Shown piece by piece: positions 5,091-43,882 of a DNA stretch of 64,000 nt (positions are counted from its first letter, which is position 1; every line of letters begins with the position of its first letter). A model generated the notes under the pieces. The model was not told where the DNA came from. It did not search any database and saw only the letters and a program-made list of their open reading frames with translations. The position numbers and the translations under genes are program-made. The DNA lies in contig JASHSU010000152.1 in NCBI GenBank assembly GCA_030038605.1, forward strand, positions 285 through 64,284. Reading direction: 5' to 3'. Origin of the DNA: Thermoplasmata archaeon (GTDB taxonomy: Archaea > Thermoplasmatota > Thermoplasmata > Lutacidiplasmatales > UBA184).

Positions 5091-6035
5091 TTACGCGACC
5101 GGCCGGTAGAGCGTCCAGAGCGCTTCGGCGGGATGGAATCCCTCCGGCTCGATCGCCGCACGGGTCCGGGTCTCGTAGACGGGCACGGAGACCACGACGC
5201 GGACGGCGCCCCGGGCCCCGCACCAGGCGCCCGCGACGCGGACCAACTCCCGTACGAGTGCCGGGTCGGCGTTCGGCCCGACGATCGGTCCGGCCACGTG
5301 GGCGGCGTCCATGCTCGGGTTCCGGGAGGCCCCGATGGCGGCCTCGACGCCATGGCCCCGGTCGACGACCCAGGCCGCACTCTCCGTCTCGAAGATCTTC
5401 TGGTCGAAGCCGTCGGGCGCGAGACCGGTCGTCCGGCGGGGCAGGACCTTCAGCACCTCGGCGGGAATCTCCGCCGTGGCCAGCGCGAGGAGCGGCTTCT
5501 CGTCCGACTTCCGATACGCCCGGATCCCGGCCGGCAAGGCCGTCCGCTCCGGCCCGAACTCGGCCAGGTGGTCGCGGGCGAAGTAGTGGACCTCGCGCAG
5601 CGGCACGTAGCCGAGACGGCCCTCGTAGAGCGTCCGCGCCGGGGTGTTCTCCGTGAGGACGTCGAGCACGAGGTACTGGCGACCCGCCCGCTGCGCGATC
5701 CGCCGGGTCTCCTCGAGGAGCGCGCGGGCAAACCCCCGTCGTCGGACGGACGGGTCGGTCGCCACGGAGCTGATGTACACCGAGCGGCCGGGGAACGAGA
5801 GCAGCGTCGTGCCGACGACCCGACCGCCCTCGTCCGCGATGAGGAAGCGGAAGACCGGTTTGCCCACCAGACGGAGCAACCCCAGCAGGATGCGCGTGTC
5901 CCACCGGTAGACCCGCTTCACCACTCGGAAGACGATCTCGGGTCGCATCCCGAGCAGGCGCTCCTCGGCGGGGAACTGCGAGGAAAGGAGGTGGGCGACA
6001 CCGGCGGTGTCGGCCGGTCGGAAGTTCCGGATCAT
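5091..6035 (-). CDS. GNAT-family N-acetyltransferase (two-domain)
   Basis: Acetyl-CoA binding motif region VATDPSVRRRGFARALLEE..., 314 aa. The start overlaps the stop of the upstream HEAT gene by 4 nt. Confidence 0.6.
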   Translation of the reverse strand: MIRNFRPADTAGVAHLLSSQFPAEERLLGMRPEIVFRVVKRVYRWDTRILLGLLRLVGKPVFRFLIADEGGRVVGTTLLSFPGRSVYISSVATDPSVRRRGFARALLEETRRIAQRAGRQYLVLDVLTENTPARTLYEGRLGYVPLREVHYFARDHLAEFGPERTALPAGIRAYRKSDEKPLLALATAEIPAEVLKVLPRRTTGLAPDGFDQKIFETESAAWVVDRGHGVEAAIGASRNPSMDAAHVAGPIVGPNADPALVRELVRVAGAWCGARGAVRVVVSVPVYETRTRAAIEPEGFHPAEALWTLYRPVA

Positions 6036-7576
6036 CCGCCGTCGTCCTCGAAAGTCGTGGCGATGGCGCTCTCGAAGAGGGTGCGGAGGGTCGGTGCCGG
6101 TCGGTCCTCGACGAGCTCGGGCAGCGGCAGCCGGGCCAGTCGGTCGAGTTCCTCGTCGGGCAGCCGGGCCCGGGCGGCCAGCAGCGCGCTCTGGACGACC
6201 GGGTCATCGGCGCCGTGCGGCAGGCGGCCCAGCGCCTGCACGATCGCATCGAACAGACGGCTCTCCGCGTCGGAGCGGAGCAGGTCCTCCTCGTCGGTCG
6301 GTACCGGCGCGCTCTCGAGACACGGACCGGTGCGGAGCAGGCGCACGAGCTCTTCCCGGGCCCCGTCGTCCCCGAGGCGGCCGAGGGCCCAGACCGCGGC
6401 CAGACGGACCTCCGGCGCGGGGTCCGCGAGCTCCTCGCGGATGCGCGGTGCCGCCGCCTCGAGACCGAGTTGACCGAGCGCGTACGTCGCGCCGCGACGG
6501 GGCCACGGGTGCTCGTCTTCCAACCGGTCGAGCAGGCGCGTCAGGTCGTCGGGGCTGCCGACCGCACCCAGGGCGACCGCCGCCGCCCCGCGGACCGGCC
6601 AGGCGGGGTCGGCGAGTCGCTCCCGCGCGGTCGCCCGGGCGTCGTCACCGCCGAGCTCCCCGAGCGCGTGCACGGCGCAGACCCGCAGCCAGTGCTGCGG
6701 GGACCGGGAGGCGTCGACCAGCGGTGCCACCGCCGTCGGGTCTCCGATCCGTCCCAGCGCGACCATCACGGAGGGTTTCTCCCAGGTCTCGGGTTGCGCG
6801 AGGATCTCGAGGAGGCGCGGCACGGCCTCGTCGTCGTGGAGGCGTCCGCAGATGACCGCGGCCGCGGCCCGCACGCGGCGCGAGGGGTCGTGGAGCATCG
6901 CACGGACGAGTCCGCGGACCTCGGGACGGCCCGCCCGCCCCAGACCGAGGACCGCCTCGCGGCGCACGCGGTCGGACGGGTCCGCGAGCAACGGTCCCAA
7001 GCCCGCGTGCGCGGCCTCGGTGCCGATCCGGCCCAAGGTACGGGCCACGGCCAGTCGGACGCCCGCGTCCGGGTCGACGGCAGCCCGGGTGAGGGCCGGT
7101 ACCGAGTCCGAAGGCGCGGCGGCGCCGAGCGCGTCGGCCGTCTTGCGACGGACCTCGGGCTCCGGGTCGTCGAGCATAGCTTCGAGGGCCTGTCGCGTAT
7201 CGGGGCGGCCCGCCGGGCCGAGGGCCTCGGCGACGGCGGCGCGAACGGCCGGGTCCGGATCGCTCAGCGCGGCCGCGAGGGTGGTGGCGGCCCGGGGGTC
7301 GGCGAGCAGGCCGAGGGCGACCGCCGCCGTCTGCCGGATCCCCGCCACCGGGTCGCTCAGGGCGACCAGGAGCGGCGTCAGGTCGTCGACCCGGCCCCGT
7401 CGGGCGGTCGCGCGGAGTTCCGCGGCGCGCTCGGAGGGGCGCAGCTCGGTCGGCGGTGTCCGTCGGGCGGCGGGGCGTCGGGCCGGTCGTCGTTCCGGCG
7501 CCGGGCGGCGCGCTCGCTGGGCCACGCCGGCTCCACGGCGGCTCGGGCTAAAACGTCCCCCCGCTCGCGGCGGCAC
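6032..7576 (-). CDS. HEAT/PBS-lyase repeat protein. The N-terminus is low-complexity, so the start may be internal.
   Basis: >10 repeats of the form DPdpxVRxxAaxALGxlG..., characteristic of PBS-lyase HEAT-like repeats. Confidence 0.65.
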   Translation of the reverse strand: MPPRAGGRFSPSRRGAGVAQRARRPAPERRPARRPAARRTPPTELRPSERAAELRATARRGRVDDLTPLLVALSDPVAGIRQTAAVALGLLADPRAATTLAAALSDPDPAVRAAVAEALGPAGRPDTRQALEAMLDDPEPEVRRKTADALGAAAPSDSVPALTRAAVDPDAGVRLAVARTLGRIGTEAAHAGLGPLLADPSDRVRREAVLGLGRAGRPEVRGLVRAMLHDPSRRVRAAAAVICGRLHDDEAVPRLLEILAQPETWEKPSVMVALGRIGDPTAVAPLVDASRSPQHWLRVCAVHALGELGGDDARATARERLADPAWPVRGAAAVALGAVGSPDDLTRLLDRLEDEHPWPRRGATYALGQLGLEAAAPRIREELADPAPEVRLAAVWALGRLGDDGAREELVRLLRTGPCLESAPVPTDEEDLLRSDAESRLFDAIVQALGRLPHGADDPVVQSALLAARARLPDEELDRLARLPLPELVEDRPAPTLRTLFESAIATTFEDDGG

Positions 7577-9887
7577 CGTCCAGCGCCGACTGCACGACCT
7601 GCTCCGGCGAGCGGTACGGTCCCCGTGCGACGGGTCCTCCGTACCCCCATCGGGCGAGCAGGTCGTCCCGGACGATGCCGAACGGCCCGAGCAGCGTCTC
7701 CGCGTCCCGGGCGAGGAGCTCCAGGTACGCGTCCGGGTCGTACCCCTCGTGGCCGTCCAGCAGTTCCTCCGGCCGGACCCGGTCCCGGTAGGAGCGGCTC
7801 GTCCGGTCGAGGATGACGTAGCGGACCGTCTGCCCCGCCTCCCGGCGCACGCCCTCCCGCTCGAGCTGGCGGAGGGCCGCCACCGAGTCGGTGAACGTGA
7901 CGAAGGCGTCGCTCGCCTGCCCGAGCCGGTGCGTGATGACGAGCTCGTCGACCGGCCAGGTCCCGGCGCGGACCTGCGCGGCGAAATCGTCGGCCCGCCG
8001 CAGCGCGACCGGCAGGAGCGCCCGGAACGCGTCCGGTCCCCCCGCCGGACCGAACAGGTTCAGCATCTCTCCCTCGAACCGGCGGACGAGCCCGGTCGTG
8101 TCGTGCCGGCGGCCCCCGATCCCCCGGAGCTTGAACTCGCCGCTCTCGTAGACGCCGTAGTAGCGGTTCGGGACGCCGAGCCCGTGGGTCACGGCTGGCA
8201 GGAAGACGATCCACCGGTACCGGCCCTCGTAGCCGAGCGGCAGCCCGGTCCGCGCGCTCACCGACCGCGCGAACCCCTCGGGGTCCGGCGGGTGCGTGGG
8301 GTCGGTCGGGGCGAGCCAGAGCGAGTCGACGATCCCGTGCACGACCCGGTACCCGGCCCGCTCCGCGGCCGGTACCAGGTCGGCCAGCAGCTCGCGGGCG
8401 TAGGCGTTGATCGCCTCGTGGCACTCGATCCGGCCGAACCGGGCGTTCCGGTACCCCTGGTAGCCGAACGCGGTCACGAGGATCCACTTGAGCATCTTGA
8501 CCCGGCCGACCAGGCGCGCCCGTTCCTCGGCCGGGAGGTGCGGGTCCTTGACCGCCGCCTTGTAGGCGAGCCGCCGGGCGAGCAGCGGCTCCAACGTGCG
8601 CGGGATGAGCCCGACCGTCCGGGTGCACGAGCGGTAGCCGAGCCCCGGCGCCCGGATCGGGCTGGTCGGGCAGCACCGGCACTCGAGCGTCTCCGCCGAG
8701 AGGTTCTTCCGGACCATGATGTGGGGAAAGAGGCTCGCGAAGTCGAACTCGTCCACCGGGCCGAAGACGCCGACCGGCGGGACGAAGATCACGCCGCCCC
8801 GGTCGGCGGCGACCAGGCGGTCCGCGCGGCGGAACGACTCGGGCCGGTTCTTCTTCCACGGCACGTGGAACCCGCGGCGGAGCGCCTCGGCCATCTCCAT
8901 CGCGGTGAAGCACGTCCCGGGCGACTGGCGCGCGACGGTCGAGAGGGAGAGACGGGAGAGCCGTGCCGCGTCCACGAGGCCGGCCAGGTCGGCGTCGTCG
9001 AACAGGAACGAGTTCTCGCGGTCCAGGTGGAACCGGCCCGGGACCGGGTAGGTCGCCGCCCGGTAGAGGATCCGGCCGTACGTCGCGAACGAGCGGGCCG
9101 CCCGCGCCGGACGGAACCCCACGGGTTCGCGTCCGAGGGCGAAGGCGTCGGGTCCGAGGCCCAGGGCGGCGGCGCGCCGGTAGAGCCACGGCACGTCCCG
9201 CGCGTCGCCCCCGCGGGTCAGCAGCACGTCCGGGTCGGCGCGGGCGAGCTCGCCGACGAGCGCGCGGAGCAGGTCCTCCTCCGGACCCTCCAGCGTGACG
9301 TCCCCGAGCCGGACGGCGGCGACCGTCCCCTCGTTCGGTGGCAGACGGCCGTGGTGCGGGCCGGTGAGCGTCACCTCGAGACGCGCCGTGACGAGCGGGG
9401 GGAACGTGTAGTCGACCGTCTCCGCCGGCTCGGTCGCGGTGAGCCGGGCGCCCCGGCCCACGACCGGGGCGAACGGGTAGAGTCCGTGGGCCAGGTAGTA
9501 GAGCTGCGGCGGCCCCAGGTCGACGTCGAAGAGCGTGAACCGCACGAAGCCGCCGAGCGTGTCGACCGTGCGGGCGAGGGCACGGCGCTGCGCGTTCCGG
9601 ACCGGCACGACCTCGAGCACGGTCCGCGGACGGTGGTCGAAGACCGACGGGCGGAGGACGACCGGGCGCACGCGCTCGACCGTCGGACGCCCCGCGAGGC
9701 GCGGGAGGAGGTCGGTGAGGTCGCGCCGCGACCCCGCGACGTAGAACGGCGGCCGGTACTCGACCGCGGTGCGCCGCACGCGGCCGGTCGTCCGCTCCTT
9801 CGTCCAGAGGACGACCGAGCGGCCGTCCGAGCTCTCCGTGATGTCGAGGAGCCAGGCGTCCGGGAGCGGCCCGGCGGCGCCGGTCAC
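7548..9887 (-). CDS. Family B DNA polymerase paralog with divergent catalytic motifs (possibly inactivated). GTG start at 9887.
   Basis: PolB-type N-terminus (LLDITESSDGRSVVLWTKE...YRPPFYVAG). Motif A-like DFASLFPHIM, motif B-like KWILVTAFGYQGY, and motif C region VVHGIVDSLWL in place of YGDTDS, followed by the KxY-region LPLGYEGRYRWIVF. Confidence 0.6.
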   Translation of the reverse strand: MTGAAGPLPDAWLLDITESSDGRSVVLWTKERTTGRVRRTAVEYRPPFYVAGSRRDLTDLLPRLAGRPTVERVRPVVLRPSVFDHRPRTVLEVVPVRNAQRRALARTVDTLGGFVRFTLFDVDLGPPQLYYLAHGLYPFAPVVGRGARLTATEPAETVDYTFPPLVTARLEVTLTGPHHGRLPPNEGTVAAVRLGDVTLEGPEEDLLRALVGELARADPDVLLTRGGDARDVPWLYRRAAALGLGPDAFALGREPVGFRPARAARSFATYGRILYRAATYPVPGRFHLDRENSFLFDDADLAGLVDAARLSRLSLSTVARQSPGTCFTAMEMAEALRRGFHVPWKKNRPESFRRADRLVAADRGGVIFVPPVGVFGPVDEFDFASLFPHIMVRKNLSAETLECRCCPTSPIRAPGLGYRSCTRTVGLIPRTLEPLLARRLAYKAAVKDPHLPAEERARLVGRVKMLKWILVTAFGYQGYRNARFGRIECHEAINAYARELLADLVPAAERAGYRVVHGIVDSLWLAPTDPTHPPDPEGFARSVSARTGLPLGYEGRYRWIVFLPAVTHGLGVPNRYYGVYESGEFKLRGIGGRRHDTTGLVRRFEGEMLNLFGPAGGPDAFRALLPVALRRADDFAAQVRAGTWPVDELVITHRLGQASDAFVTFTDSVAALRQLEREGVRREAGQTVRYVILDRTSRSYRDRVRPEELLDGHEGYDPDAYLELLARDAETLLGPFGIVRDDLLARWGYGGPVARGPYRSPEQVVQSALDGAAASGGTF

Positions 9888-10138
9888 CGGCGCGGCGCCG
9901 GGGCCGTCCCGTCCGCCGGCAGCCGGCGGGCCAGGTCCAGGAGGACGGAGAGGAGGATCGACTCCAGGAGGTCGGGGCTCCCCACGTACGTCGCCTGGGC
10001 GACGTAGCGCCGGGCGCCGAGGCGGAGCGTCTCGAACGCCGCCCGCTCCTCGGGCGTCGTCAGGAGGCGCGCGAACTCGTCCCAGCGCTTCAGCCGCTCC
10101 TCGAGGGCCTGCCGGTAGGTCGGGACGGTGCGTCCCAC
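9884..10138 (-). CDS. Small hypothetical protein (84 aa) with a GTG start preceded by a strong Shine-Dalgarno
   Basis: GGAGGTGA at 10150-10143, then 4 nt to GTG at 10138. Its stop overlaps the PolB-like GTG start (GTGA). It is the non-low-complexity C-terminal part of track ORF 9884..10777. Confidence 0.35.
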   Translation of the reverse strand: MGRTVPTYRQALEERLKRWDEFARLLTTPEERAAFETLRLGARRYVAQATYVGSPDLLESILLSVLLDLARRLPADGTAPAPRR

Positions 10139-10956
10139 GCGATCACCTCCCCGGCGGCTCCGCCGCCGAACTCCTCGATGCCCCGCTGGCCGGGCGGTCG
10201 CGCGACCAGCCGCAGGTGCGCGTCGTCCCGGAGGGCCCGGAGCGTGAGCGAGCCCGGGGCCCGGGCGAACGTCACCAGGTCGCACCAGAGCGGCCCGGCG
10301 TCCCCCAGGCCGGGAAAGCTGGCCGCCCCGGTCGGGTCGAGGGTCAGGAGGAGGGGAAGGCGCAGCGACTCGGCCAGCGTGCGGAGCGATCCCGCGACGT
10401 GGCGGAGGAGCGACGCGCGCTCGTCCGGCGGGACGTCGTCGATGGAGAAGGCGGCCGGCAGGTCGTGGCCGACGAGCAGGGTCGGCGGGTGGCGGCGGGC
10501 CTCGGCCGACCAGGCGTCCACGAGCGCGACCATCTGGTAGGCGGTGAACGAGCGGGCGAGGCGGATCCGTCGCAGGACCTCGGCGGCGTCCACGCCGAGC
10601 CCCCGGCCGACCTCGCCGAGCCGGTAGGGCAGGAAGTGGTTCGCCCCCTCGAGCAGCGAGATGCGGCCGCGACCGAGCGCGTTGCCGGCGTAGAGGAGCT
10701 CCAGGATGGGGTCGAGGGCGGCGCGCGGGCCGGTCCAGAGCGTGAGCTGGCCCGGCGCGAACCGACGGGCGAGCCACGGGAACAGCGCGGGCGCGGACGG
10801 CAGACCGGCGAGCGGACGGGCCTGGCGGGGCCGCGGCGCGAGCCGGATGCGGACGGGCAGTCGCGGCGGGCGGACCCGCGTCGTCTCGGGGACGAACGGG
10901 ACCGGCTCGCTCGTCTCCTCGAACAGCGGGGACGGAAGGGGGAACGTATCGAGCAT
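10090..10956 (-). CDS. Hypothetical protein (288 aa)
   Basis: Globular-looking sequence (RISLLEGANHFLPYRLGEVGRGLGVDAAEVLRRIRLARSFTAYQMVALVD...). It is co-directional with, and overlaps, the small ORF and the PolB-like gene. No family was recognised. Confidence 0.4.
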   Translation of the reverse strand: MLDTFPLPSPLFEETSEPVPFVPETTRVRPPRLPVRIRLAPRPRQARPLAGLPSAPALFPWLARRFAPGQLTLWTGPRAALDPILELLYAGNALGRGRISLLEGANHFLPYRLGEVGRGLGVDAAEVLRRIRLARSFTAYQMVALVDAWSAEARRHPPTLLVGHDLPAAFSIDDVPPDERASLLRHVAGSLRTLAESLRLPLLLTLDPTGAASFPGLGDAGPLWCDLVTFARAPGSLTLRALRDDAHLRLVARPPGQRGIEEFGGGAAGEVIAWDAPSRPTGRPSRSG

Positions 10957-11052
10957 CGCCGACCGGGACCGTTCGACGGCCGCGGCGGCTCTAAAGCGAC
11001 CGCTCGGGGGATGTTGAAACGGGTCGGGAACGGCCCGTTCCCGGGCGCCGCC

Positions 11053-11817
11053 TCAGTCCAGTCGGGACCGGCTCGCGGGTCGGGACAGCCCCAGCAGTTC
11101 GGAGAGCGATCGGGCGTTCACGGCCGCATCCCCGCGGAAATGGTTGTTGAAGAATCCGTAGACGACGTCGACCTTCTCGGCGAGCGTCCGGACCTGGGGC
11201 GCCCACGCCTCCAGTTGGGACGGCGTGTAGGTGTAGTCGTACCAGAGCGGGGCGCCGTGCCCGTGCCACCGCACGTAGGCGAACGGCGCCGTCACCTCGA
11301 GCTGCGCCGGCAGGTGGGGCTCGTCGGCGACGACGTAGGCGAACCCGAACTCCCGGAGCAACTCGAACGACGCCGGCACGACCCAGGACCGCTCCCGGAA
11401 CTCGACCGCGACCGGCAGGTCCCGCGGCAGGGAGGCGTAGAACGCCCGCACCGTGGCGGGCTCGAACGGGAGCGACGGCGGCAGCTGCAGGAGCGCCGCC
11501 ACGAACTTGCCGGCCCGGCGCATCGGGTCGAGCACGGCCAGGAACCGGCGGACCTCCTCGTCGGTCCCGACCAGGCGGAGGTCGTGCGTGATCGTCTGGG
11601 GAAACTTCGCCGCGAACCGGAACGAGGGCGGCGTCCTCCGTACCCACGACTCGGCGACGGCCGGGGGCGGCAGCCGGTAGAACGTCGAGTTGACCTCGAC
11701 GATTGGGAAGAGACCGGCATAGTACCGCAACCGGTCCGACGTCCCGTGCTTGGGGTAGACCCGCCCGACCCACTCCGGATAGTCCCAGCCACTCGTCCCG
11801 AGCCGGATGTCGCCCAC
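11053..11817 (-). CDS. DUF72 (UPF0759/YecE) family protein
   Basis: MGDIRLGTSGWDYPEWVGRVYP...FPIVEVNSTFYRLP...YVRWHG is the canonical DUF72 signature. Confidence 0.7.
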   Translation of the reverse strand: MGDIRLGTSGWDYPEWVGRVYPKHGTSDRLRYYAGLFPIVEVNSTFYRLPPPAVAESWVRRTPPSFRFAAKFPQTITHDLRLVGTDEEVRRFLAVLDPMRRAGKFVAALLQLPPSLPFEPATVRAFYASLPRDLPVAVEFRERSWVVPASFELLREFGFAYVVADEPHLPAQLEVTAPFAYVRWHGHGAPLWYDYTYTPSQLEAWAPQVRTLAEKVDVVYGFFNNHFRGDAAVNARSLSELLGLSRPASRSRLD

Positions 11818-33735: not shown

Positions 33736-34596
33736 GTGACCTTCTCGGGGTGCGTCCGTCAAGAACCGAGGAGGCGTGGTGCGATCACGACGCGATACCT
33801 GATCCGGTTCGGCTACGACGGCCAGGGATTTTCCGGGTGGGCCCGACAACCAGGACACCGAACGGTCGAGGGTGAGCTCCGGCGGGGTCTCACCCGGCTC
33901 GGAGTGGCCCGCCCCCCGACCCACGGCGCGCTGGAGGTCGCGAGCCGGACGGACCGCGGCGTGAGCGCTCGCGCGAACGCGCTGGGGCTGACCAGCGACC
34001 TGGCCGGCCCGGCCCTGCTCCGCGCCCTCAACGGCATCGACCCGTCGCTCTGGTTCACGGCGCTCCGGTCCGTCCCGGAGGGGTTCCCGGTCCGGCGTGC
34101 GGTCCGCCGCGTCTACCGGTATTTCGAACCGCCCGACCAACGCTCGCACGAGGCCTCCCGTGCGGCGGCGCGCCTCTTCCTCGGGGAGGTCGATGTCGGT
34201 TCCTTCGGTCGCGGTCTACCTCGGTCCGGCCCGGTCCTCCGCACGCTCGAGTCGGTCGAGATCGCCACCGAGCCCGACGGGGGACGGACGATCGAGGTGC
34301 GAGCTCCGGGGTTCGTCTGGGGCGAGGTGCGCAAGATCGTCGCCGCGCTCCGGGAGGTCGACGCGGGCCGGCTCACCGAGCGGCAGCTGCGCCAAAGCCT
34401 GGCGGGGGACGTTCGCCTGACCCTGCCGATGGCCGAACCGGAAGCGCTCGTGCTCTGGGAGGTCGAGTACGCCGACCCGTGGGTCCACTTCTGGACCGGG
34501 CCCAACCGGCGACAGGCGGCGCGGGTCGCCGAGGAGCGGGGGCGCTGGTGGGGCCGCTCCCGATGGCTGGGCGAGTTCGGTGGCGGGGCCGACTAG
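33736..34596 (+). CDS. truA: tRNA pseudouridine(38-40) synthase TruA
   Basis: LIRFGYDGQGFSGWARQPG...RTVEGEL...GVSARANALGL is the TruA catalytic region (Asp in the RTD-like block). The start may be an internal alternative. Confidence 0.7.
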   Translation: MTFSGCVRQEPRRRGAITTRYLIRFGYDGQGFSGWARQPGHRTVEGELRRGLTRLGVARPPTHGALEVASRTDRGVSARANALGLTSDLAGPALLRALNGIDPSLWFTALRSVPEGFPVRRAVRRVYRYFEPPDQRSHEASRAAARLFLGEVDVGSFGRGLPRSGPVLRTLESVEIATEPDGGRTIEVRAPGFVWGEVRKIVAALREVDAGRLTERQLRQSLAGDVRLTLPMAEPEALVLWEVEYADPWVHFWTGPNRRQAARVAEERGRWWGRSRWLGEFGGGAD

Positions 34597-35897
34597 CCGA
34601 CCCGTTCCCAGCGCTCGAGCTTCTGAACGGTCCCGAGCGTGGACCCCCGCTGGATCTCCTCGCGGACACGGTTCTCGTGTTCCAAGACGTCCAGCGCTCG
34701 GTTCGCGATCTCCGCGGCCCGTTCCCGCGGCACGACGACCACGCCGCTCAGGTCGCCGACGACCCAGTCGCCGGGCCGGACCCGCTGACCGCCGACGACG
34801 ACCTCGACGCCGATCTCCCCGTGGCCCTTCGGCTCGCCCGCGTCGGAGCTCACGTTGCGGCTGAAGAGCGGGAAGCCGAGCTCGAGGATCGCGTCCACGT
34901 CGCGGGCGGCCCCATCGATGACAACGCCGGCGATGCCGCGTCCGTGGGCGCTCCAACTGGCCAGCTCGCCCCAGATGGCGGTCGGGCCGCCCCCCGCATC
35001 GACCACGATCACGTCGCCCGGGCCGGCCCGGTCGATCGCCTCCACGGGCTTGGCCCAGTCCCCGTCCCGGGTCACGACGGTGACGGCCGGGCCCGCGATG
35101 CGGACGGTCGGGCTCTTCAATCGAGCGACGATCCCGTGCATCGCGCCGCGGCGCTGGAGGGCGTCGGTCACGTTCGGGCTAGAGACCTTGAGGAACGCCT
35201 CCCGAATCTCCGCCCCCGCGTACCGCCGGAAGTGCTCGGTCGTGACCTCGCGTCCCGTGTCGATCGCCTGACGGATCGCCCGGGTGGCTTCCGTGACCTT
35301 GGGGCTCTTGGTGATCGCCCCACCCACGATGAGGATCCGGGCCCCGGCTCGAACCGCCGCGGCGGCCGTCTCGGAGTTGAGGCCCCCGGCGACCGCGACC
35401 GGGATCGGGGAGGCCTTCACGAGGTCGGCGAGCACGTCGAACGGGGTCCGACCCTGCATCTGCATGTCGATGCCGATGTGCCAGCAGACCGCGGCGGCGC
35501 CCAGCTCCGCCACGCGGCGCGCGCGGGCGATCGGGTCGGCCACGCCGAGCAGGTCGACGACGACTTCCGCCCCGTAGAGTTCTCCGCCCCGTACCCCGTC
35601 CGCGATGGTGTCGTCGTCCGCGGCGCCCAGGATCGTGACCAGGTCCGCCCCGGCCTTCGCGGCGATCTCGACCTCGAAGGCCCCGGTATCCATCACCTTC
35701 AGGTCGGCGACGATCCGGTGCGCCGGGAACGCTTTCTTGAGCTCGCGGACCGCGTCCAGCCCTTCGCTCTTGATGAGCGGCGTACCGGCTTCGACCCAGT
35801 CCGCGCCGCCCTCGACCGCCTCCCGGGCCGCCAGGAGCGCCCGGGACAGGTTCTCGAAGTCCAGGGCGACCTGCAGGACCGGCTGATCCAGCCGCAT
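34593..35897 (-). CDS. Bifunctional fusion of a 3-hexulose-6-phosphate synthase (HPS; OMP-decarboxylase-like fold) domain with an RraA-like (MenG/RraA family) domain
   Basis: The N-terminal ~210 aa is an HPS-type TIM barrel (VLQVALDFENLSRAL...ADLKVMDTG...GGLNSETA...ILIVGGAITKS). The C-terminal ~210 aa is RraA-like (GPAVTVVTRDGDWAKPVEAIDRAGPGDVIVVDAGGGP...IDGAARD). Confidence 0.6.
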   Translation of the reverse strand: MRLDQPVLQVALDFENLSRALLAAREAVEGGADWVEAGTPLIKSEGLDAVRELKKAFPAHRIVADLKVMDTGAFEVEIAAKAGADLVTILGAADDDTIADGVRGGELYGAEVVVDLLGVADPIARARRVAELGAAAVCWHIGIDMQMQGRTPFDVLADLVKASPIPVAVAGGLNSETAAAAVRAGARILIVGGAITKSPKVTEATRAIRQAIDTGREVTTEHFRRYAGAEIREAFLKVSSPNVTDALQRRGAMHGIVARLKSPTVRIAGPAVTVVTRDGDWAKPVEAIDRAGPGDVIVVDAGGGPTAIWGELASWSAHGRGIAGVVIDGAARDVDAILELGFPLFSRNVSSDAGEPKGHGEIGVEVVVGGQRVRPGDWVVGDLSGVVVVPRERAAEIANRALDVLEHENRVREEIQRGSTLGTVQKLERWERVG

Positions 35898-35946: not shown

Positions 35947-36831
35947 GTGCCGGCGCGCCGGGCGACGCAGGTCCGCCTCATTTACGGCGATGCCCGCTCG
36001 ATGCCGACCGTCCCGGACCGGTCGGTCCACCTGGTCGTCACGTCCCCGCCGTACCCTATGATCCCTCAGTGGGACCACCTCTGGAAGGAACTGGGCGCCA
36101 CGGAGTACGCGGGCATGCACGACGTCCTCGAGCTCGCTTGGGCCGAGTGCCGCCGGGTCCTCGTGGACGGGGGCCTCCTGGCGGTCGTCATCGGCGATGC
36201 CCTGCGCTCCGACCGGTCCGGCTTCGCCCTGTGGCCGAACCACGCCGAGACCCTGGTCCGCGTCGCACGACAGGGGCTCCGACCCCTGCCGTACATTCTC
36301 TGGAAAAAGCCGACCAACAAACCGAACGCGTTCCTGGGGAGCGGCTTCCTTCCTCCCAACGCCTACGTCACGCTGGACTGCGAGTACATCCTGCTGTTCC
36401 GGAACGGCCGCCTGCGCCGCTTCCCGCCGCACGACCCGGCCCGGTCGGCCAGCCGGTTCACGCGGGACGAACGCGACCACTGGTTCAGCCAGGTCTGGGA
36501 GGACGTCCGGGGAGCACCCCAGCGGCGCGGCTCAGGCCGGTCGGGCGCCTTTCCGGCGGAGATCCCGCGTCGGCTCATCCGCATGTTCTCGGTGATCGGG
36601 GACACGGTCCTCGACCCGTTCGCCGGCACGGGGACGACCGTGCGGACGGCATGGGAGCTCGGCCGCAGCGCGGTCGGCGTGGAGATCGACCGTGCGGTCT
36701 ACGACGACCTGGTCCGAACGTCGTGGCGACTCGGGCCGTCGCCCGGACGGGCCGACGGCGTCAGGGGTCCGGCGCGACGGTCCGGCGCGGGTCGGTCGCC
36801 GGGGTCGGCGGCCGTTCGGTCCGGTGCGTGA
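35947..36831 (+). CDS. Beta-class DNA methyltransferase, probably N4-cytosine (SPPY motif)
   Basis: Motif IV VVTSPPYPM precedes motif I DPFAGTGTT, the order typical of the beta class. SPPY is typical of N4mC enzymes. A TATA-like GCTATTAACGG lies at ~35918. Confidence 0.7.
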   Translation: MPARRATQVRLIYGDARSMPTVPDRSVHLVVTSPPYPMIPQWDHLWKELGATEYAGMHDVLELAWAECRRVLVDGGLLAVVIGDALRSDRSGFALWPNHAETLVRVARQGLRPLPYILWKKPTNKPNAFLGSGFLPPNAYVTLDCEYILLFRNGRLRRFPPHDPARSASRFTRDERDHWFSQVWEDVRGAPQRRGSGRSGAFPAEIPRRLIRMFSVIGDTVLDPFAGTGTTVRTAWELGRSAVGVEIDRAVYDDLVRTSWRLGPSPGRADGVRGPARRSGAGRSPGSAAVRSGA

Positions 36832-37270
36832 GCTCCTCGTCGATCGCGGTCCGAAGGTACCGGAGGGCCGAGTCGCCGAGCCGGTCCATGTGCAGGAGGA
36901 GATAGTGGAGGTAGATCCGTTCCGGACGGTGGAGCGGACTCATCGAGGGTACCGCCGTGGGCGTCGCGTGCCGCGCGAGGGTCTCCTGATGGTGCTCGTA
37001 CCGCCGCCCGTGGACCTCGCGACCCGTCGGGCCGACCAGGGGCGGAGAGAATCGGTCGACCGGGTCGTACGGAGGGTCGGTCGCGGTGCCCGCGGTCGGG
37101 CGAGGCCCGGGGGATCGCGGCGCGAGGCGCCCGGCGAGGTACGGGTGGACGGGCTTCTCCGGATCCTGGAGGTCCTCGACCGGCCGGCCGGCGACGTCCT
37201 CCACGATCGTCTTGAGGCTCCAGCTCGTGCGCCGACGAGCGGGCCCTTCGGCCGTTGCTTCCGCGGCCAC
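36761..37270 (-). CDS. Possible small protein downstream of the ATPase (doubtful)
   Basis: An ORF 25 nt downstream of the ATPase stop. The sequence is partly Pro/Arg/Thr-rich, and its C-terminal 60 aa (MSPLHRPERIYLHYLLLHMDRLGDSALRYLRTAIDEELTH...) overlaps the 3' end of the MTase on the opposite strand. Confidence 0.2.
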   Translation of the reverse strand: MAAEATAEGPARRRTSWSLKTIVEDVAGRPVEDLQDPEKPVHPYLAGRLAPRSPGPRPTAGTATDPPYDPVDRFSPPLVGPTGREVHGRRYEHHQETLARHATPTAVPSMSPLHRPERIYLHYLLLHMDRLGDSALRYLRTAIDEELTHRTERPPTPATDPRRTVAPDP

Positions 37271-37294
37271 GCCGGGACCCCGGCGGACCGGGCC

Positions 37295-38962
37295 TCATAA
37301 ACCATCCTCTGGACCCGAACCGGCCGGACGGACCGCCAGAGCGCTGCTCAGAAACTCGTACTCCGGCGTGGATGCCACGAGAGCCAGCGGGAGGTGGAGT
37401 TCCCCGACCCGCCACAGCGACTCCGAGTACCCGACCGCTCGCGGCAATCTCGCCCGAGGCAGCCAGGCCGCTTCGGCGGCCGTGAGGCCGAAGAAGGTCC
37501 GCGCTGCCTCGGAGACCTCGCCCAGATGGAGAAACCCGGTGGCGTACAGATTCCGAAGGGTGGACCGACCGCTGGGCGTGGTCAGGAAGTCGTCCGGGTT
37601 CTGGCTGAGCAGGAGAAGGCCGGCGCGGAAATGGCGGATGTGGCGGACCGTCCGGTCCAGAAACTCCGCGGCCGCGGGGTGGCGCGCCAGAAGGTGGGCT
37701 TCGTCCAGCAGGACCAGGGTCGGTCCTCCGTGGTCCCGAATTCTCCCGTACACCCAGTCGAGCAAGTACGTGAGGTGGAACCCCAGGTGCTCGTCCGGGA
37801 CGCCCGACAGGTCGAAACAGAGCGGGCTCGCGTCGGTCCGCACCGTCGTCGGGCCGTTCGCCCCCGCCAACGAGCCCGACCGGAACACGTCGAGCAGCAC
37901 CCGCAATCGGTCGGACGACCCCCCACCCGGTGGGAGGGCCGCCATCAGGTCGTCGAACGTCGGGACGGCGGGCCCGTCCTCGTACAGGCGCCGAACGGCC
38001 GCATCGAGGACCGCCCCCTCCTCGTCCCGGAGGGAGGGGTAGAGGGCCCGCAACGCCGTCACGACCCGGGCCGACTTCTCGACGCGGTCGCCGGAGGTGG
38101 TCACCGGGTCGAGGGGGTTGACCCGACCCGCGGTGGGATCGGCCAACCGGAGGACCCGTCCCCCCATCCGCTCGACGAGGGAACCGAACTCCCCCAACGG
38201 GTCGAGGACGACGAGGTCGAGGTCCGGCGTCGTCCACCGGGTACGGAGGGCGAACAGGGCCGCGGCGAACGATTTTCCGGAGCCCGTGGTGCCGAACAGC
38301 CCCCAGGAATGGCTGGCGTGGTCCCATCGGTTCAGGAACACAGGGCTCGCGTCGGCCAGGGCGAGGCCGATCAAGATCCCGTTCGGTTCCAGCAGGGACT
38401 CGTCGCCGAACGGAAAGAAGGCGGCCACGGCGTCGGTGGGTAGGGTGTGCCAGAAGCTTCGAGGCCGAGATTCGGATCCGTCGAACTCCGGAGGCCGAAC
38501 GGCGTCCGACACCTCGTACGTCGGGACCCGAGGACGGAAACCGAGGGACGTGAGTCGGTCCGCGAGCCGCGAGCGGGCGCGGGCCACGCGAGCCCGTCCG
38601 GCGGTGCGCGCCTCGAACACGATGCCGACCCTCCACAACTCCTGGACCCTTCGCGCGACGGCCCGGGCGAGGTCGTGTGCCGACTCCTGCTCCGCTTCCA
38701 GTCGGGACGTCTCCGCGCCGGGCGCGGGCGCGGTCATCTCGGCCGCCGCCACCGTCCGGGCTCGCTCGAGCAACTCAACGGCCCGGTCGGTCGGCACCGG
38801 AAGGAGCTGCAGCACGAGTTCCACGGGCTCGGTCGTCGGGAGGACCTTCTCCAGGAATCCGAACGCGACCTCCGACGGGAGTCGTTCGACCAGCAACGGG
38901 GCCCGGCACCCCGCACCGCGGACTTGGAGGGTCGGTTCGACCCGGATCTCTCGGTCGGTCAC
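37295..38962 (-). CDS. VirB4/TrbE-like (HerA-FtsK superfamily, CedB/TedB-like) DNA-transfer ATPase
   Basis: GTG start at 38962 preceded by GGAGGAGAGGA. Walker A FGTTGSGKS, Walker B LVLLDEAHLL and an SQNPDD sensor-like motif. About 555 aa. Confidence 0.65.
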   Translation of the reverse strand: MTDREIRVEPTLQVRGAGCRAPLLVERLPSEVAFGFLEKVLPTTEPVELVLQLLPVPTDRAVELLERARTVAAAEMTAPAPGAETSRLEAEQESAHDLARAVARRVQELWRVGIVFEARTAGRARVARARSRLADRLTSLGFRPRVPTYEVSDAVRPPEFDGSESRPRSFWHTLPTDAVAAFFPFGDESLLEPNGILIGLALADASPVFLNRWDHASHSWGLFGTTGSGKSFAAALFALRTRWTTPDLDLVVLDPLGEFGSLVERMGGRVLRLADPTAGRVNPLDPVTTSGDRVEKSARVVTALRALYPSLRDEEGAVLDAAVRRLYEDGPAVPTFDDLMAALPPGGGSSDRLRVLLDVFRSGSLAGANGPTTVRTDASPLCFDLSGVPDEHLGFHLTYLLDWVYGRIRDHGGPTLVLLDEAHLLARHPAAAEFLDRTVRHIRHFRAGLLLLSQNPDDFLTTPSGRSTLRNLYATGFLHLGEVSEAARTFFGLTAAEAAWLPRARLPRAVGYSESLWRVGELHLPLALVASTPEYEFLSSALAVRPAGSGPEDGL

Positions 38963-39306
38963 TCCTCTCCTCCACGGGCCCCGCCCCTCTCCGCGAAGGC
39001 GAGGGGCAAAGTGCAGGCCCCCAGGATGGCTCCTCTCCAGACGTCGATCGGCGCGGCCCGAGCGAAGAAGACCACTGCCCCCAACGCGAGAGCGCCGAGG
39101 GCACCGACCGCCGACCGGGTCATCCTGGCCGTGGCTCCACCGTGTCGGGAACGGGCGGCCAGCCAACCCACCAAGGCCAGGACGGCGAGCGTCGCGGTCA
39201 GATCGGCGAGCGCCGGGTCGAGGACGGAGAGGAGGCCGCTCAGAAAGCCCCCTCCGGACGTCCACCGCAGGACGCTGAACCCCCCGAAGAGCTCGCCCGC
39301 GGTCAT
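38959..39306 (-). CDS. Small 3-TM membrane protein (VirB3-like candidate)
   Basis: 115 aa with three hydrophobic helices. ATG at 39306. Start and stop overlap both neighbours. Confidence 0.45.
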   Translation of the reverse strand: MTAGELFGGFSVLRWTSGGGFLSGLLSVLDPALADLTATLAVLALVGWLAARSRHGGATARMTRSAVGALGALALGAVVFFARAAPIDVWRGAILGACTLPLAFAERGGARGGEE

Positions 39307-40082
39307 GGATCCGGCGGGGTGAGGTTCCAGCCCGCGGCGGAGACGGCGGCCCCGAGCGCCCGCCCCTCGAGCACGGTAGGGCCCACGGCCAGGGTCGCCA
39401 AGCCGTCCGCGAGGGCCCTCGCCCGCTCGCGGACCCGTCGCCCGCCCTCGGCGGTCGCGTTCTCCGAGAGGAGGAAAAGGTCGACGCGCCGAGCCCGTCG
39501 CCGGAGGCACAACACCCGCACCAGCTCCGTGTACCCCGCCCGGGCCGGCGCGAGCGACGGCGCGCCGTCGGCCGTGCGGGGGAGCATCGGCGCCGCGTCG
39601 ACGGGCACGGAGTAGGCCCGGAGGACCAGTGCTCCGGACACGCCCCGAAGCACGTCACGGAACCGGTCGAAGAGGCCGGCCAGGTCGTCGGGCGGCCGAT
39701 AGGCGAGCGGCACCCCGTCGGTGCGTACGGCCGCCAGATAGCGACCGTCGCTCCGACGGGCGATCGGCCCTTGAACCCGCGGCACCGCGCGGGGGCTCAC
39801 GCCGACCCCCGGCCGAAGGCGGATCCACCGAAACCGTACCCAGCGCACCATCCGTTCGTCCGCGCTCTCTCCGTCCACTCGGCCGACCGCGACGGCGAAG
39901 CCCACGATCGGAAAGGGAAGCCAGAATCCCAGCGGCAGCCACGTCGCGAGTACGGCACCCGCGGCCGCCCAGCAGAGGAACTTGAGCGCGTCCCGCACGC
40001 TGGGGAAGGGCCCGAGTCGCATCCGTCGGTCGACGCGCTCCGGCAGGTAGACCACCGGGGCGCCTTCGGCGGGATCCGGCAT
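39303..40082 (-). CDS. Membrane-anchored protein (N-terminal TM hairpin plus ~190-aa soluble domain)
   Basis: TM segments FLCWAAAGAVLATWLPLGFWLPFPIVGFAVAV. The stop overlaps the downstream start. Confidence 0.45.
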   Translation of the reverse strand: MPDPAEGAPVVYLPERVDRRMRLGPFPSVRDALKFLCWAAAGAVLATWLPLGFWLPFPIVGFAVAVGRVDGESADERMVRWVRFRWIRLRPGVGVSPRAVPRVQGPIARRSDGRYLAAVRTDGVPLAYRPPDDLAGLFDRFRDVLRGVSGALVLRAYSVPVDAAPMLPRTADGAPSLAPARAGYTELVRVLCLRRRARRVDLFLLSENATAEGGRRVRERARALADGLATLAVGPTVLEGRALGAAVSAAGWNLTPPDP

Positions 40083-40083
40083 C

Positions 40084-41214: not shown

Positions 41215-41224
41215 CGACCCCTCC

Positions 41225-41617
41225 TCACGTCCCCGTCAACACCCAGTGCGCGAGACCCCAGAACAGCCCGGTGATCGCGGCGACGAACAGCAGGGTCCCG
41301 ATGAGAGCATCCCGCGCCCGGTCCTTGGCCTGGACCTTCTTGGTGATGTCGTTGGAGAACCAGCTGAGGGCGACGCGGGCCCAGACGAGGGACAGCAGCC
41401 CCGAGCCGGCCAGTCCGAGCAGCTCGACCAGGCGATTCACGGAGGCCGTGAAGTTGTCCACGGCCGGTGACTGCGCCACCCTGCCCCCCTCGAACTCCAC
41501 CGGGGCGACTCCGGTGGCAGAGGCCGGCGGGACCGCGGGGGGATGGACCGAGGAGATCGACCCGGCCGTCGCGATGGCGACGACCAGGAGGCAGCCGAGC
41601 CAGAGTCCGACGTTCAT
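41225..41617 (-). CDS. VirB2/TrbC-like pilin candidate (signal peptide plus two hydrophobic helices)
   Basis: MNVGLWLGCLLVVAIATAGSISS signal peptide, then helix 1 (LVELLGLAGSGLLSLVWARVALSWF), a charged loop (SNDITKKVQAKDRARD), then helix 2 (ALIGTLLFVAAITGLFWGLAHWVL). ATG at 41617 overlaps the upstream stop (ATGA). Confidence 0.45.
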   Translation of the reverse strand: MNVGLWLGCLLVVAIATAGSISSVHPPAVPPASATGVAPVEFEGGRVAQSPAVDNFTASVNRLVELLGLAGSGLLSLVWARVALSWFSNDITKKVQAKDRARDALIGTLLFVAAITGLFWGLAHWVLTGT

Positions 41618-43800: not shown

Positions 43801-43882
43801 GACCCCCTGGAGCGCGACGACGTCCGGGCTTTCTGCCCGGCAAATCCCACTGGTCGCTGAACGATGGGGGCCGGAGTGCGCC

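What the first reader, a model, noticed from the sequence alone, without database searches (positions are those of the whole stretch)
7548..10956. Divergent family-B DNA polymerase paralog with altered motif C, co-operonic with two small proteins and a HEAT/GNAT module
The 779-aa protein has a PolB N-terminal domain and recognisable motifs A (DFASLFPHIM, Asp kept) and B (KWILVTAFGYQGY, partly degenerate). The invariant motif C YGDTDS is replaced by HGIVDS, so the first catalytic Asp is lost. The Exo I-like region reads FDVDL rather than FDIE. This fits the inactivated or divergent PolB paralogs reported in several Euryarchaeota, and its function is unknown. It is translationally coupled upstream to an 84-aa protein (strong SD GGAGGTGA, GTGA overlap) and a 288-aa uncharacterised protein. 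Downstream, with overlapping stops and starts, lie a HEAT-repeat protein and a GNAT acetyltransferase. This is a conserved-looking module of unknown role.
Basis: partly seen in the sequence, partly recalled or inferred. Interest (0 to 1): 0.6.

Follow-up and report, generated by a model that had tools for sequence, protein, structure and literature searches.

The report
Archaeal PolB2 translesion polymerase operon
This is an ordinary copy of an already described archaeal three-gene operon (inactive RadA-like protein, small PPB2 protein, PolB2 polymerase) thought to copy past DNA damage, here in an uncultured Thermoplasmata archaeon; only its HEAT and acetyltransferase neighbours are unreported.

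Summary
They are not an orphan "inactivated PolB of unknown role". The run 10956-7548 (minus strand) is the published PolB2 operon in its commonest order: iRadA (288 aa), PPB2 (84 aa), PolB2 (779 aa). iRadA is a RadA/Rad51 core without a P-loop. PPB2 carries the diagnostic N-terminal MGRTVPTYR arm. HGIVDS is the PolB2 family consensus (HxxxD), not a private lesion. The motif A Asp and the second motif C Asp are invariant in 79 of 79 relatives. Sulfolobus PolB2 enzymes have the same substitution and are published as robust, exonuclease-free extender polymerases. The window also has the FxxA and D(K/R) motifs, a PCNA-box-like tail on iRadA, and an upstream DUF72 gene, which is a reported neighbour. 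The HEAT and GNAT genes are probably co-transcribed but occur only in a narrow Thermoplasmata subclade, so they are not part of the conserved module. Whether the genome also has PolB3 or PolD could not be tested. Interest is low: this is a new member of a known kind.

The parts
11053..11817 (-). DUF72 gene (254 aa), directly upstream and in the same direction. DUF72 is a reported enriched neighbour of PolB2 operons.
   Evidence: Pfam DUF72 at 2e-65. A DUF72 gene lies within 10 kb of PolB2 in 29 of 83 loci from several lineages. The enrichment is reported in PMC11791011.
10957..11052 (-). Operon promoter region. It holds the palindrome GGGAACG-N3-CGTTCCC (11026-11042), a GTTTC box (CCGTTTCAAC, 11013-11022) and a TATA-like GCTTTAGAGC (10988-10997). 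The iRadA ATG lies 39 nt after the first T of TTTAGA.
   Evidence: Alignments of 19 Thermoplasmata loci show GTTTC invariant and the TATA-like box conserved. Both are also present where DUF72 is not adjacent. The exact palindrome and the GTTTC-plus-TATA arrangement each occur once in the window. Function is inferred, not shown.
10090..10956 (-). iRadA (288 aa): a RadA/Rad51 ATPase-core homologue without a Walker A P-loop. It has a disordered Pro/Arg-rich N-terminus and a C-terminal PCNA-box-like QRGIEEF (10168-10188).
   Evidence: Pfam Rad51 at 6e-4, below the cut-off. A family profile matches P. furiosus RadA at 2.4e-20, starting just after the P-loop. The AF2 core has pLDDT about 90, and Foldseek matches RAD51/DMC1/RadA at about 1e-11. 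GPRAALD stands where GxxGxGKT should be, and 69 of 72 relatives lack GK[ST].
10143..10150 (-). Shine-Dalgarno GGAGGTGA for PPB2, located inside the 3' end of iRadA.
   Evidence: Read directly from the sequence. The same 49-nt iRadA/PPB2 overlap is seen in L001, L002, L083 and L085.
9884..10138 (-). PPB2 (84 aa; formerly arCOG07300; Pfam DUF8156 in orthologues). The N-terminus reads MGRTVPTYR, with Arg3 and Arg9.
   Evidence: Sequence. The [MVLI]G[RK]T start is found in 55 loci, and the window protein matches 54 of them at E <= 3e-6. Orthologues carry PF26485. The MGRT arm is described in PMC11791011.
7548..9887 (-). PolB2 (779 aa). Motif A is at 8715-8744 (Asp382), motif B at 8451-8489 (Lys467), motif C HGIVDS at 8322-8339 (Asp521), and FRRA...DR (FxxA plus the D(K/R) motif, residues 352-363) at 8799-8834.
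   Evidence: The AF2 model has pLDDT 93.2 and pTM 0.91. The best Foldseek match is archaeal PolB at E 2e-43 and TM 0.72.
6032..7525 (-). HEAT-repeat protein (about 497 aa; the ORF is open back to 7576). It has an Arg-rich N-terminal tail. It is a clade-specific downstream gene and probably co-transcribed.
   Evidence: Pfam HEAT_2 at 2e-70. The start is inferred from orthologues. It is present downstream of PolB2 in all 19 loci whose PolB2 is >= 63% identical (window included) and in L083-L086, and absent from the rest.
5091..6035 (-). GNAT acetyltransferase (314 aa). Its start overlaps the HEAT stop as ATGA. It travels with the HEAT gene.
   Evidence: Pfam Acetyltransf_1 at 1e-13. The HEAT-GNAT pair is seen.

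Best explanation
The locus is the PolB2 "mutasome" operon of a Thermoplasmata archaeon, read from its own promoter in the order iRadA, PPB2, PolB2.

PolB2 is most likely an active, proofreading-deficient family-B polymerase. It keeps both metal-binding aspartates (Asp382 in motif A and Asp521 in motif C) and the motif B lysine. It has the family-typical HxxxD in place of YxDTD. No intact exonuclease site could be identified.

By analogy with Sulfolobus Dpo2, it would extend primer ends that are mismatched or lie opposite a lesion after another polymerase has inserted a base. It would therefore serve damage tolerance and damage-induced mutagenesis rather than bulk replication.

Following the published AlphaFold models, it is inferred to work as PolB2 : iRadA : 3 PPB2. 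In that model:
- iRadA, an ATPase-dead RadA core, is held by the FxxA-type motif of PolB2 (FRRA, residues 352-355).
- The MGRT arm of one PPB2 subunit inserts between PolB2 and iRadA, next to the D362-R363 motif and the DNA.
- The QRGIEEF tail of iRadA would recruit PCNA.

Shown here: the identity of the three proteins, their diagnostic motifs, and the conservation of the gene order. Inferred from the literature: activity, complex formation and damage induction. DUF72, upstream, is a recurrent accessory neighbour. HEAT and GNAT, downstream, are lineage-specific passengers or add-ons.
For: Family and fold:
- The closest relatives are Thermoplasmata proteins at 70-86% identity. There are 1544 representatives at E <= 1e-10.
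- NCBIfam scores the short PolB subfamilies NF004418 and NF004416 at 1e-122 and 1e-107, against 1e-31 or weaker for the other PolB models.
- The AF2 model has pLDDT 93 and matches archaeal PolB at TM 0.72.

Motifs in 79 relatives:
- Asp382, Asp521 and Phe474 are in 79 of 79. Lys467 is in 78, His517 in 76, and Ile/Leu/Val/Met at the first-Asp position in 77.
- Asp362 is in 79 of 79, followed by Arg or Lys in 75.
- Phe352 is in 54 and Ala355 in 53.
- The window segment around motifs B and C is close to PolB2 entries listed in the published supplement, which carry the same HGIVDS / IVD.

Partners:
- iRadA is supported.
- PPB2 is supported, and by DUF8156 hits in orthologues.

Gene order:
- iRadA, then PPB2, then PolB2 is found in 72-73 of 83 loci, covering archaea and bacteria.

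Literature:
- The operon is described in PMC4104785.
- The complex model, its motifs and the DUF72 enrichment are in PMC11791011.
- Dpo2 activity, absence of exonuclease and the extender role are in PMC8764526.
- Damage-induced, Orc1-2-dependent expression is in PMC6061795.
Against: - There is no biochemistry for any Thermoplasmata PolB2. Activity is extrapolated from Sulfolobales enzymes, which are much shorter.
- Motif B departs from the canonical KxxxNSxYG: the Asn position is Val and the Tyr position is Phe, across the whole family.
- The complex is known only from AlphaFold models, and I did not model it here.
- No orc1/cdc6 or SRAP gene was found among the window genes I scanned, so damage induction is unsupported here.
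- The presence of PolB3 or PolD elsewhere in this genome could not be checked.
Confidence: 0.85

Rival explanations
1. PolB2 here is a catalytically dead polymerase homologue that acts only as a DNA-binding or regulatory scaffold with iRadA and PPB2. This is the original 2008/2014 reading and the first reader's.
For: - The first Asp of motif C is lost and the motif Tyr is His.
- Motif B Asn and Tyr are replaced.
- No intact exonuclease site could be identified.
- This was the view of PMC4104785.
Against: - Sulfolobus Dpo2 enzymes carry the same HxxxD (IID) and are reported to be as active as the replicase Dpo1. Structures of other family-B polymerases show that the second Asp, not the first, binds the metal (PMC8764526).
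- Asp382, Asp521 and Lys467 are invariant or nearly so across relatives at 30-86% identity. That is the pattern expected for a working active site.
Confidence: 0.1
2. HEAT and GNAT are real additional components or regulators of the mutasome in this subclade. Examples would be a scaffold plus acetylation of PCNA, iRadA or chromatin proteins. On this reading the functional module has five or six genes.
For: - HEAT follows PolB2 on the same strand in 19 of 19 loci of the subclade. In 17 of them no other gene lies between.
- Orthologues at only 44-51% identity keep the same position.
- The gap is 22 nt with a GGAG, and HEAT and GNAT overlap as ATGA.
Against: - Both genes are absent from sister Thermoplasmata loci (PolB2 51-61% identical) and from all other lineages.
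- Neither family appears in the text or held supplement files (two were cut when stored) of PMC11791011.
- The whole block is syntenic in this clade, including the unknown and M29-like genes further downstream and folP and gyrA nearby. Adjacency may therefore be inherited gene order.
- Other genes are inserted between PolB2 and HEAT in L001 and L059.
- HEAT evolves much faster than PolB2.
Confidence: 0.15
3. The polymerase belongs to an integrated mobile element or virus (a casposon or provirus type PolB) rather than to the host repair machinery.
For: Archaeal genomes do carry PolB genes borne on mobile elements (PMC4104785). GC content in 2-14 kb is slightly higher than in the rest of the window.
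Against: - The flanks are housekeeping genes: gyrA, folP and DUF72, with fibrillarin and S3Ae further along.
- The locus is syntenic across many MAGs.
- No Cas1, integrase or capsid families were found in the neighbours I scanned.
- The protein scores far better against the short cellular PolB subfamily models (NF004418, NF004416) than against any other PolB model.
Confidence: 0.02

Closest known systems
PolB2 mutasome operon, iRadA-PPB2-PolB2, group 1a (Makarova, Krupovic and Koonin 2014, PMC4104785; Timinskas, Timinskas and Venclovas 2025, PMC11791011)
   Same: - The three families are the same, in the same order and orientation.
- Motif C is HxxxD.
- The D(K/R) and FxxA-type motifs are present.
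- PPB2 has the MGRT arm.
- iRadA has no P-loop and carries a C-terminal PCNA-box-like motif.
- DUF72 lies upstream.
- Thermoplasmata operons of this type are already listed in that paper's supplement.
   Different: - No orc1/cdc6 or SRAP gene was found among the window genes I scanned.
- A HEAT-GNAT pair lies directly downstream, which that paper does not report.
- iRadA overlaps PPB2 by 49 nt.
Sulfolobus islandicus / S. solfataricus Dpo2 (PolB2): translesion extender polymerase (PMC7390963, PMC8764526)
   Same: It belongs to the same PolB2 group. The first motif C Asp is replaced by Ile (IID there, IVD here). No intact exonuclease site is recognisable here, and none is detectable there.
   Different: - The Sulfolobus enzymes are described as the smallest PolB2 and have a much more eroded exonuclease domain.
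- The window protein is 779 aa with a largely complete fold.
- Activity, damage induction and Orc1-2 control are shown only for Sulfolobus.
Archaeal replicative PolB3 (KOD, Tgo, Pfu, 9N polymerases)
   Same: The overall fold is shared (Foldseek E 2e-43, TM 0.72). The motif A Asp, the motif B Lys and the second motif C Asp are kept.
   Different: - YxDTD is HGIVD.
- Motif B Asn and Tyr are Val and Phe.
- The Exo I pair is incomplete.
- The Exo III region is about 45 residues shorter and does not align.
- Sequence identity is only about 20%.
Eukaryotic Pol zeta (Rev3-Rev7) and the E. coli Pol V mutasome (UmuD'2C-RecA); the bacterial ImuA-ImuB-DnaE2 cassette (the last from my own knowledge)
   Same: The logic is analogous: a proofreading-free or error-prone polymerase, small accessory subunits and a RecA/Rad51-family partner, used for lesion bypass (the comparison is made in PMC11791011).
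   Different: Apart from the family-B catalytic core shared with Rev3, the subunits are not homologous. These are analogies, not membership.

Membership tests
PolB2 group of family-B polymerases | Family-B polymerase fold and sequence, closer to the short PolB subfamilies than to PolB3/PolB1 | tested here: met
   Pfam DNA_pol_B at 1e-15. NF004418 and NF004416 score 1e-122 and 1e-107, against <= 1e-31 for the other PolB models, although both are below NCBI's curated cut-offs. AF2 pLDDT is 93, and Foldseek matches archaeal PolB at TM 0.72.
PolB2 group of family-B polymerases | Motif C is HxxxD (Tyr replaced by His, first Asp replaced), with the second Asp and the motif A Asp kept | tested here: met
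   HGIVDS aligns to YSDTDG of KOD. In the family columns His is 76/79, Ile/Leu/Val/Met 77/79, Asp521 79/79 and Asp382 79/79.
PolB2 group of family-B polymerases | The 3'-5' exonuclease active site is lost | tested here: inconclusive
   No DxE pair appears in either plausible register. Only one conserved acid (residue 153) is present, and the positions two residues before and after it (151, 155) are almost never acidic. The Exo II Asp position is Asp in the window but in only 11 of 79 relatives. The Exo III region is about 45 residues shorter and does not align. I made no residue-level structural superposition and ran no assay.
PolB2 group of family-B polymerases | Conserved D(K/R) motif preceded by an FxxA-type segment that binds iRadA | tested here: met
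   The window has F352-R-R-A355 and D362-R363. In the family, Asp is 79/79, Arg/Lys 75/79, Phe 54/79 and Ala 53/79. The binding role is taken from PMC11791011 and was not tested.
PolB2 group of family-B polymerases | Encoded next to iRadA and PPB2 | tested here: met
   The window order is iRadA, PPB2, PolB2 with overlapping genes. The same order is found in 72-73 of 83 loci.
PolB2 group of family-B polymerases | Polymerase activity with mismatch or lesion extension, and damage-induced expression | not testable with these tools
   Known only for Sulfolobus Dpo2 (PMC8764526, PMC6061795).
iRadA (inactivated RadA) | RadA/Rad51 ATPase-core fold | tested here: met
   A profile of 32 sequences matches P. 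furiosus RadA at 2.4e-20. The AF2 core has pLDDT about 90. Foldseek matches RAD51/DMC1/RadA at about 1e-11, with about 205 residues at 3.3 A.
iRadA (inactivated RadA) | Walker A (GxxxxGK[ST]) is lost, and the N-terminal helical domain of RadA is absent | tested here: met
   The window reads TGPRAALD at the P-loop position. 69 of 72 relatives lack GK[ST]. Residues 1-35 are predicted disordered, with little regular structure before the core begins near residue 58, and no helical domain is present.
iRadA (inactivated RadA) | C-terminal PCNA-binding motif (an optional feature of the family) | tested here: met
   The window has QRGIEEF. Qxx[LIMV]xx[FYW] is found in 42 of 72 relatives. Binding to PCNA was not tested.
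PPB2 (arCOG07300 / DUF8156) | Protein of about 80-100 aa with the conserved N-terminal MGRT arm and Arg3 and Arg9 | tested here: met
   The window protein starts MGRTVPTYR. In 55 loci Gly2 and Thr4 are 55/55, Arg3 50/55 and Arg9 48/55, and 54 of them match the window protein at <= 3e-6. PF26485 hits are on record for orthologues, but that model is not in the local Pfam copy.
PPB2 (arCOG07300 / DUF8156) | Three-helix fold, homotrimer, insertion into the PolB2/iRadA cleft | not tested
Replicative PolB3 | Intact YxDTD and Exo I-III motifs | tested here: not met
Mobile-element PolB (casposon / provirus) | Association with Cas1, an integrase or virion genes, and element borders | tested here: not met
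   The neighbours are housekeeping or unknown genes. The locus is syntenic across MAGs. I did not search for terminal repeats.

The most novel reading that the evidence does not exclude
In one Thermoplasmata subclade the PolB2 operon may have been extended by a fast-evolving HEAT-repeat protein with an Arg-rich tail and a GNAT-domain acetyltransferase of about 310 aa that act on or with the mutasome. The operon may also be switched by a conserved GTTTC box and palindrome upstream of its TATA box, resembling the Orc1-2 damage-response element (ANTTTC) of Sulfolobales. That would be a lineage-specific regulatory layer on archaeal translesion synthesis.
Probability: 0.12. Interest if true: 0.5.

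Novelty: new member of a known kind. Interest (0 to 1): 0.2.

Why it matters
The result matters mainly as a correction. Loss of one motif C aspartate does not mean a dead polymerase, and this module already has a name, a proposed architecture and a biochemical precedent.

The locus is one more well-preserved Thermoplasmata example of the PolB2 mutasome, which still lacks an experimental structure. It is full length, with a confident fold model (pLDDT 93) and all the interaction motifs present. It could therefore serve as a construct for biochemical work.

The only possibly new points are minor. One is the clade-restricted HEAT-GNAT pair downstream. The other is a conserved promoter element that could be tested as a damage-response operator.

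Tried and rejected
- **Exact-sequence look-up.** The window PolB2 is not on record in the contig collection. I used neighbours of close homologues instead.
- **Pfam on PPB2.** The local Pfam copy gives nothing for PPB2, even for orthologues that carry a precomputed PF26485 hit. The model is evidently not in the local copy, so membership rests on the MGRT motif and on homology.
- **PPB2 HMM.** My iterative PPB2 HMM on stop-to-stop ORFs was contaminated by long alternative-frame ORFs in the high-GC loci. I redid the analysis anchored on the N-terminal motif.
- **Second polymerase or regulator in the window.** I looked for a second PolB, PolD or orc1/cdc6. The PolB2 HMM hits only this gene. Pfam on 37 further window proteins found none.
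- **GTTTC box and palindrome elsewhere.** I found no other promoter-like copy in the window, so there is no evidence of a regulon here.
- **FDVDL as Exo I.** Rejected on the profile alignment.
- **HEAT as a DNA-alkylation-repair (AlkD-like) protein.** Only generic HEAT, PBS-lyase and Arm families matched.
Full report
**What is there**

The minus strand carries a tight run of genes in one direction.

| Gene | Coordinates | Size |
|---|---|---|
| DUF72 | 11053-11817 | 254 aa |
| 288-aa gene | 10090-10956 | 288 aa |
| 84-aa gene | 9884-10138 | 84 aa |
| PolB-like gene | 7548-9887 | 779 aa |
| HEAT-repeat gene | 6032-7525 (ORF open to 7576) | about 497 aa |
| GNAT gene | 5091-6035 | 314 aa |

- The 84-aa gene starts at a GTG four bases after GGAGGTGA, inside the end of the 288-aa gene, giving a 49-nt overlap.
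- The TGA of the 84-aa gene overlaps the polymerase GTG as GTGA.
- HEAT and GNAT overlap as ATGA.
- The HEAT start is most likely the GTG at 7525, 22 nt after the polymerase TAG and preceded by GGAG. That is where orthologues begin.

The window is archaeal chromosome. It carries fibrillarin, ribosomal protein S3Ae and gyrA. All close homologues of the polymerase are labelled Thermoplasmata archaeon and are 70-86% identical.

**The polymerase**

It is a family-B polymerase. Pfam gives 1e-15. Thermococcus and Pyrococcus PolB structures match at about 1e-33 with the single sequence and at 1e-109 with a family profile. An AlphaFold2 model built on 79 relatives is confident (pLDDT 93.2, pTM 0.91). 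It superposes on 9N, KOD and Tgo polymerases (Foldseek E 2e-43, TM 0.72, about 20% identity).

It is not a private degeneration, however. Counts in 79 relatives at 30-86% identity:

| Position | Count |
|---|---|
| His at the motif C Tyr position | 76/79 |
| Ile/Leu/Val/Met at the first-Asp position | 77/79 (Asp 0/79) |
| Second Asp (D521) | 79/79 |
| Motif A Asp (D382) | 79/79 |
| Motif B Lys (K467) | 78/79 |
| Motif B Phe (F474) | 79/79 |

This is the HxxxD signature of the PolB2 group.

- FDVDL (residues 120-124) aligns with the N-terminal-domain motif EYDIPF of the P. abyssi enzyme, not with Exo I.
- In the true Exo I region there is no DxE pair in either plausible register.
- The Exo II Asp position happens to be Asp in the window but is Asp in only 11 of 79 relatives.
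- The stretch that should hold Exo III is about 45 residues shorter and does not align.

**The two upstream genes**

*The 288-aa protein.* On its own it gives only a sub-threshold Rad51 hit (6e-4). Further evidence is stronger.

- A profile of 32 orthologues taken from related loci matches the P. furiosus RadA ATPase core at 2.4e-20. The match begins just after the P-loop.
- Where RadA has GxxGxGKT, the window has TGPRAALD. 69 of 72 relatives lack GK[ST].
- An AlphaFold2 model has a core pLDDT of about 90 and a disordered N-terminus. It matches RAD51, DMC1 and RadA cores at about 1e-11.
- The C-terminus carries QRGIEEF, and a Qxx[LIMV]xx[FYW] motif is present in 42 of 72 relatives.

*The 84-aa protein.* It starts MGRTVPTYR.

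- The same [MVLI]G[RK]T start with Arg3 and Arg9 is found in 55 related loci. The window protein matches 54 of them.
- Orthologues carry Pfam DUF8156.

**Comparison with the literature**

Makarova, Krupovic and Koonin (2014, PMC4104785) described PolB2 in a predicted operon with an inactivated RadA and the small helical arCOG07300 protein.

Timinskas, Timinskas and Venclovas (2025, PMC11791011) named the partners iRadA and PPB2. Their main points were:
- iRadA-PPB2-PolB2 is the main gene order.
- A PolB2 : iRadA : 3 PPB2 complex can be modelled.
- The PPB2 MGRT arm, the PolB2 D(K/R) motif and a preceding Rad51-oligomerisation-like segment mediate the contacts.
- iRadA tails carry clamp-binding motifs.
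- orc1/cdc6, lexA, SRAP and DUF72 genes are enriched nearby.

The window has each of these protein features. It has F352-R-R-A355 and D362-R363, with Asp invariant and Arg or Lys in 75 of 79 relatives. It has the MGRT arm and the QRGIEEF tail, and DUF72 lies directly upstream. Their supplement already lists Thermoplasmata operons of this type, with IVD/IID and an iRadA motif such as QSHLEAFG.

Feng et al. (2022, PMC8764526) showed that the S. islandicus and S. solfataricus PolB2 enzymes, which have IID at this position, are robust polymerases without exonuclease. They insert poorly opposite lesions but extend mismatched and lesion-paired termini efficiently. The same paper states that dpo2 is the only polymerase gene essential for damage-induced mutagenesis. 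It also notes that in family-B structures the second Asp, not the first, binds the metal. In Sulfolobus the gene is induced by DNA damage through Orc1-2 (PMC6061795).

**Gene neighbourhoods**

I fetched 80 loci from GTDB species genomes using a family alignment, and six more through protein look-ups. Of these, the window plus 82 loci (83 in all) were scanned with HMMs built from the window proteins.

- iRadA then PPB2 then PolB2 occurs in 72-73 of the 83. These include Methanomassiliicoccales, Bathyarchaeia, Hadarchaeota, Methanoperedens and several bacteria. Most exceptions are loci cut at the contig end.
- DUF72 lies within 10 kb in 29 loci from several lineages.
- HEAT, usually followed by GNAT, lies downstream of PolB2 in all 19 loci whose PolB2 is at least 63% identical (window included). 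It also does so in four loci reached from HEAT orthologues that are only 49-50% identical.
- HEAT is absent from sister Thermoplasmata loci (PolB2 51-61% identical) and from everything more distant.
- Two loci have other genes inserted between PolB2 and HEAT.
- The wider block is syntenic in this clade. It includes an unknown gene of about 350-400 aa and an M29-like gene of about 369 aa downstream, with LSM, folP and gyrA nearby.

HEAT and GNAT are therefore probably co-transcribed with PolB2 here, but they are not part of the conserved module. Neither is mentioned in the 2025 paper or in its held supplements.

**Mechanism**

The best-supported reading is a specialised, proofreading-free family-B polymerase working in a complex with an ATPase-dead RadA and a PPB2 trimer. 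iRadA would recruit it to PCNA, and it would extend distorted primer ends during lesion bypass.

- *Shown here:* family membership, the diagnostic residues, the partner identities and the conservation of the gene order.
- *Inferred from other organisms or from published models:* activity, stoichiometry, clamp binding and damage induction.

The "dead scaffold" reading remains possible but is disfavoured by the Sulfolobus biochemistry and by the invariance of the metal-binding residues. A mobile-element origin is very unlikely.

**Limits**

I could not test whether PolB3 or PolD exists elsewhere in this genome. The window contains no second PolB, and no PolD or orc1/cdc6 was found among the genes I scanned. 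[quoted passage not shown]

**Verdict**

The locus is a new member of a known kind, and interest is low.

Noticed in passing
window 10957-11052 (minus strand): palindrome 11026-11042, CCGTTTCAAC 11013-11022, GCTTTAGAGC 10988-10997: The intergenic region upstream of iRadA is conserved at the DNA level. GTTTC is invariant in 19 Thermoplasmata loci and lies about 18 nt upstream of a TATA-like box. In the closest loci it is preceded by the perfect palindrome GGGAACG-N3-CGTTCCC; in others by GAAAC, which forms an inverted repeat with GTTTC. It resembles the Orc1-2 damage-response element ANTTTC (AGTTTCR) of Sulfolobus, but its function is untested.
   Followed up: partly
window 10090-10138; also L001, L002, L083 and L085: The 3' end of iRadA overlaps the 5' end of PPB2 by exactly 49 nt in the window and in four relatives. 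The last 19 or so residues of iRadA (EVIAW...S..G) are nearly invariant. This is probably because that DNA also encodes the conserved MGRT arm of PPB2 in another frame.
   Followed up: partly
L044 (606-1715), L045 (513-1475), L046 (3861-4862): Some Bathyarchaeia PolB2 loci carry an extra RadA-like gene with an intact Walker A (GEFGSGKSQ or GDYGVGKTQ) beside the P-loop-less iRadA. L044 appears to hold two PolB2 modules.
   Followed up: no
L083 12890-13510: In one relative, a 3-methyladenine DNA glycosylase (Pur_DNA_glyco) lies three genes downstream of the GNAT gene on the same strand. It is one more repair gene in the block.
   Followed up: no
window 35947-43926: An N6/N4 DNA methylase (35947-36831, plus strand) sits beside a 787-aa HerA-like ATPase (DUF87; 37295-39658, minus strand). 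Two large proteins with no significant family match follow, of 376 aa (40084-41214) and 770 aa (41614-43926). This may be a defence or DNA-processing island.
   Followed up: no
window 51137-59346: This region has lower GC (0.64-0.66, against about 0.70 elsewhere). It encodes a 1675-aa protein with only a weak beta-sandwich hit and a 1019-aa thermopsin-like protease. Both are probably surface or secreted proteins.
   Followed up: no
window 34593-35897 (minus strand): A single 434-aa protein fuses an OMP-decarboxylase/HUMPS-family domain to an RraA-like aldolase domain.
   Followed up: no
window 6032-7525 and orthologues (alignment A4): The HEAT proteins share a variable Arg-rich N-terminal tail. 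They also share a conserved C-terminal segment (SDAESRLFD...EELDR.ARLP.PE...PTLR.LF) followed by an acidic end. The meaning is unknown.
   Followed up: partly
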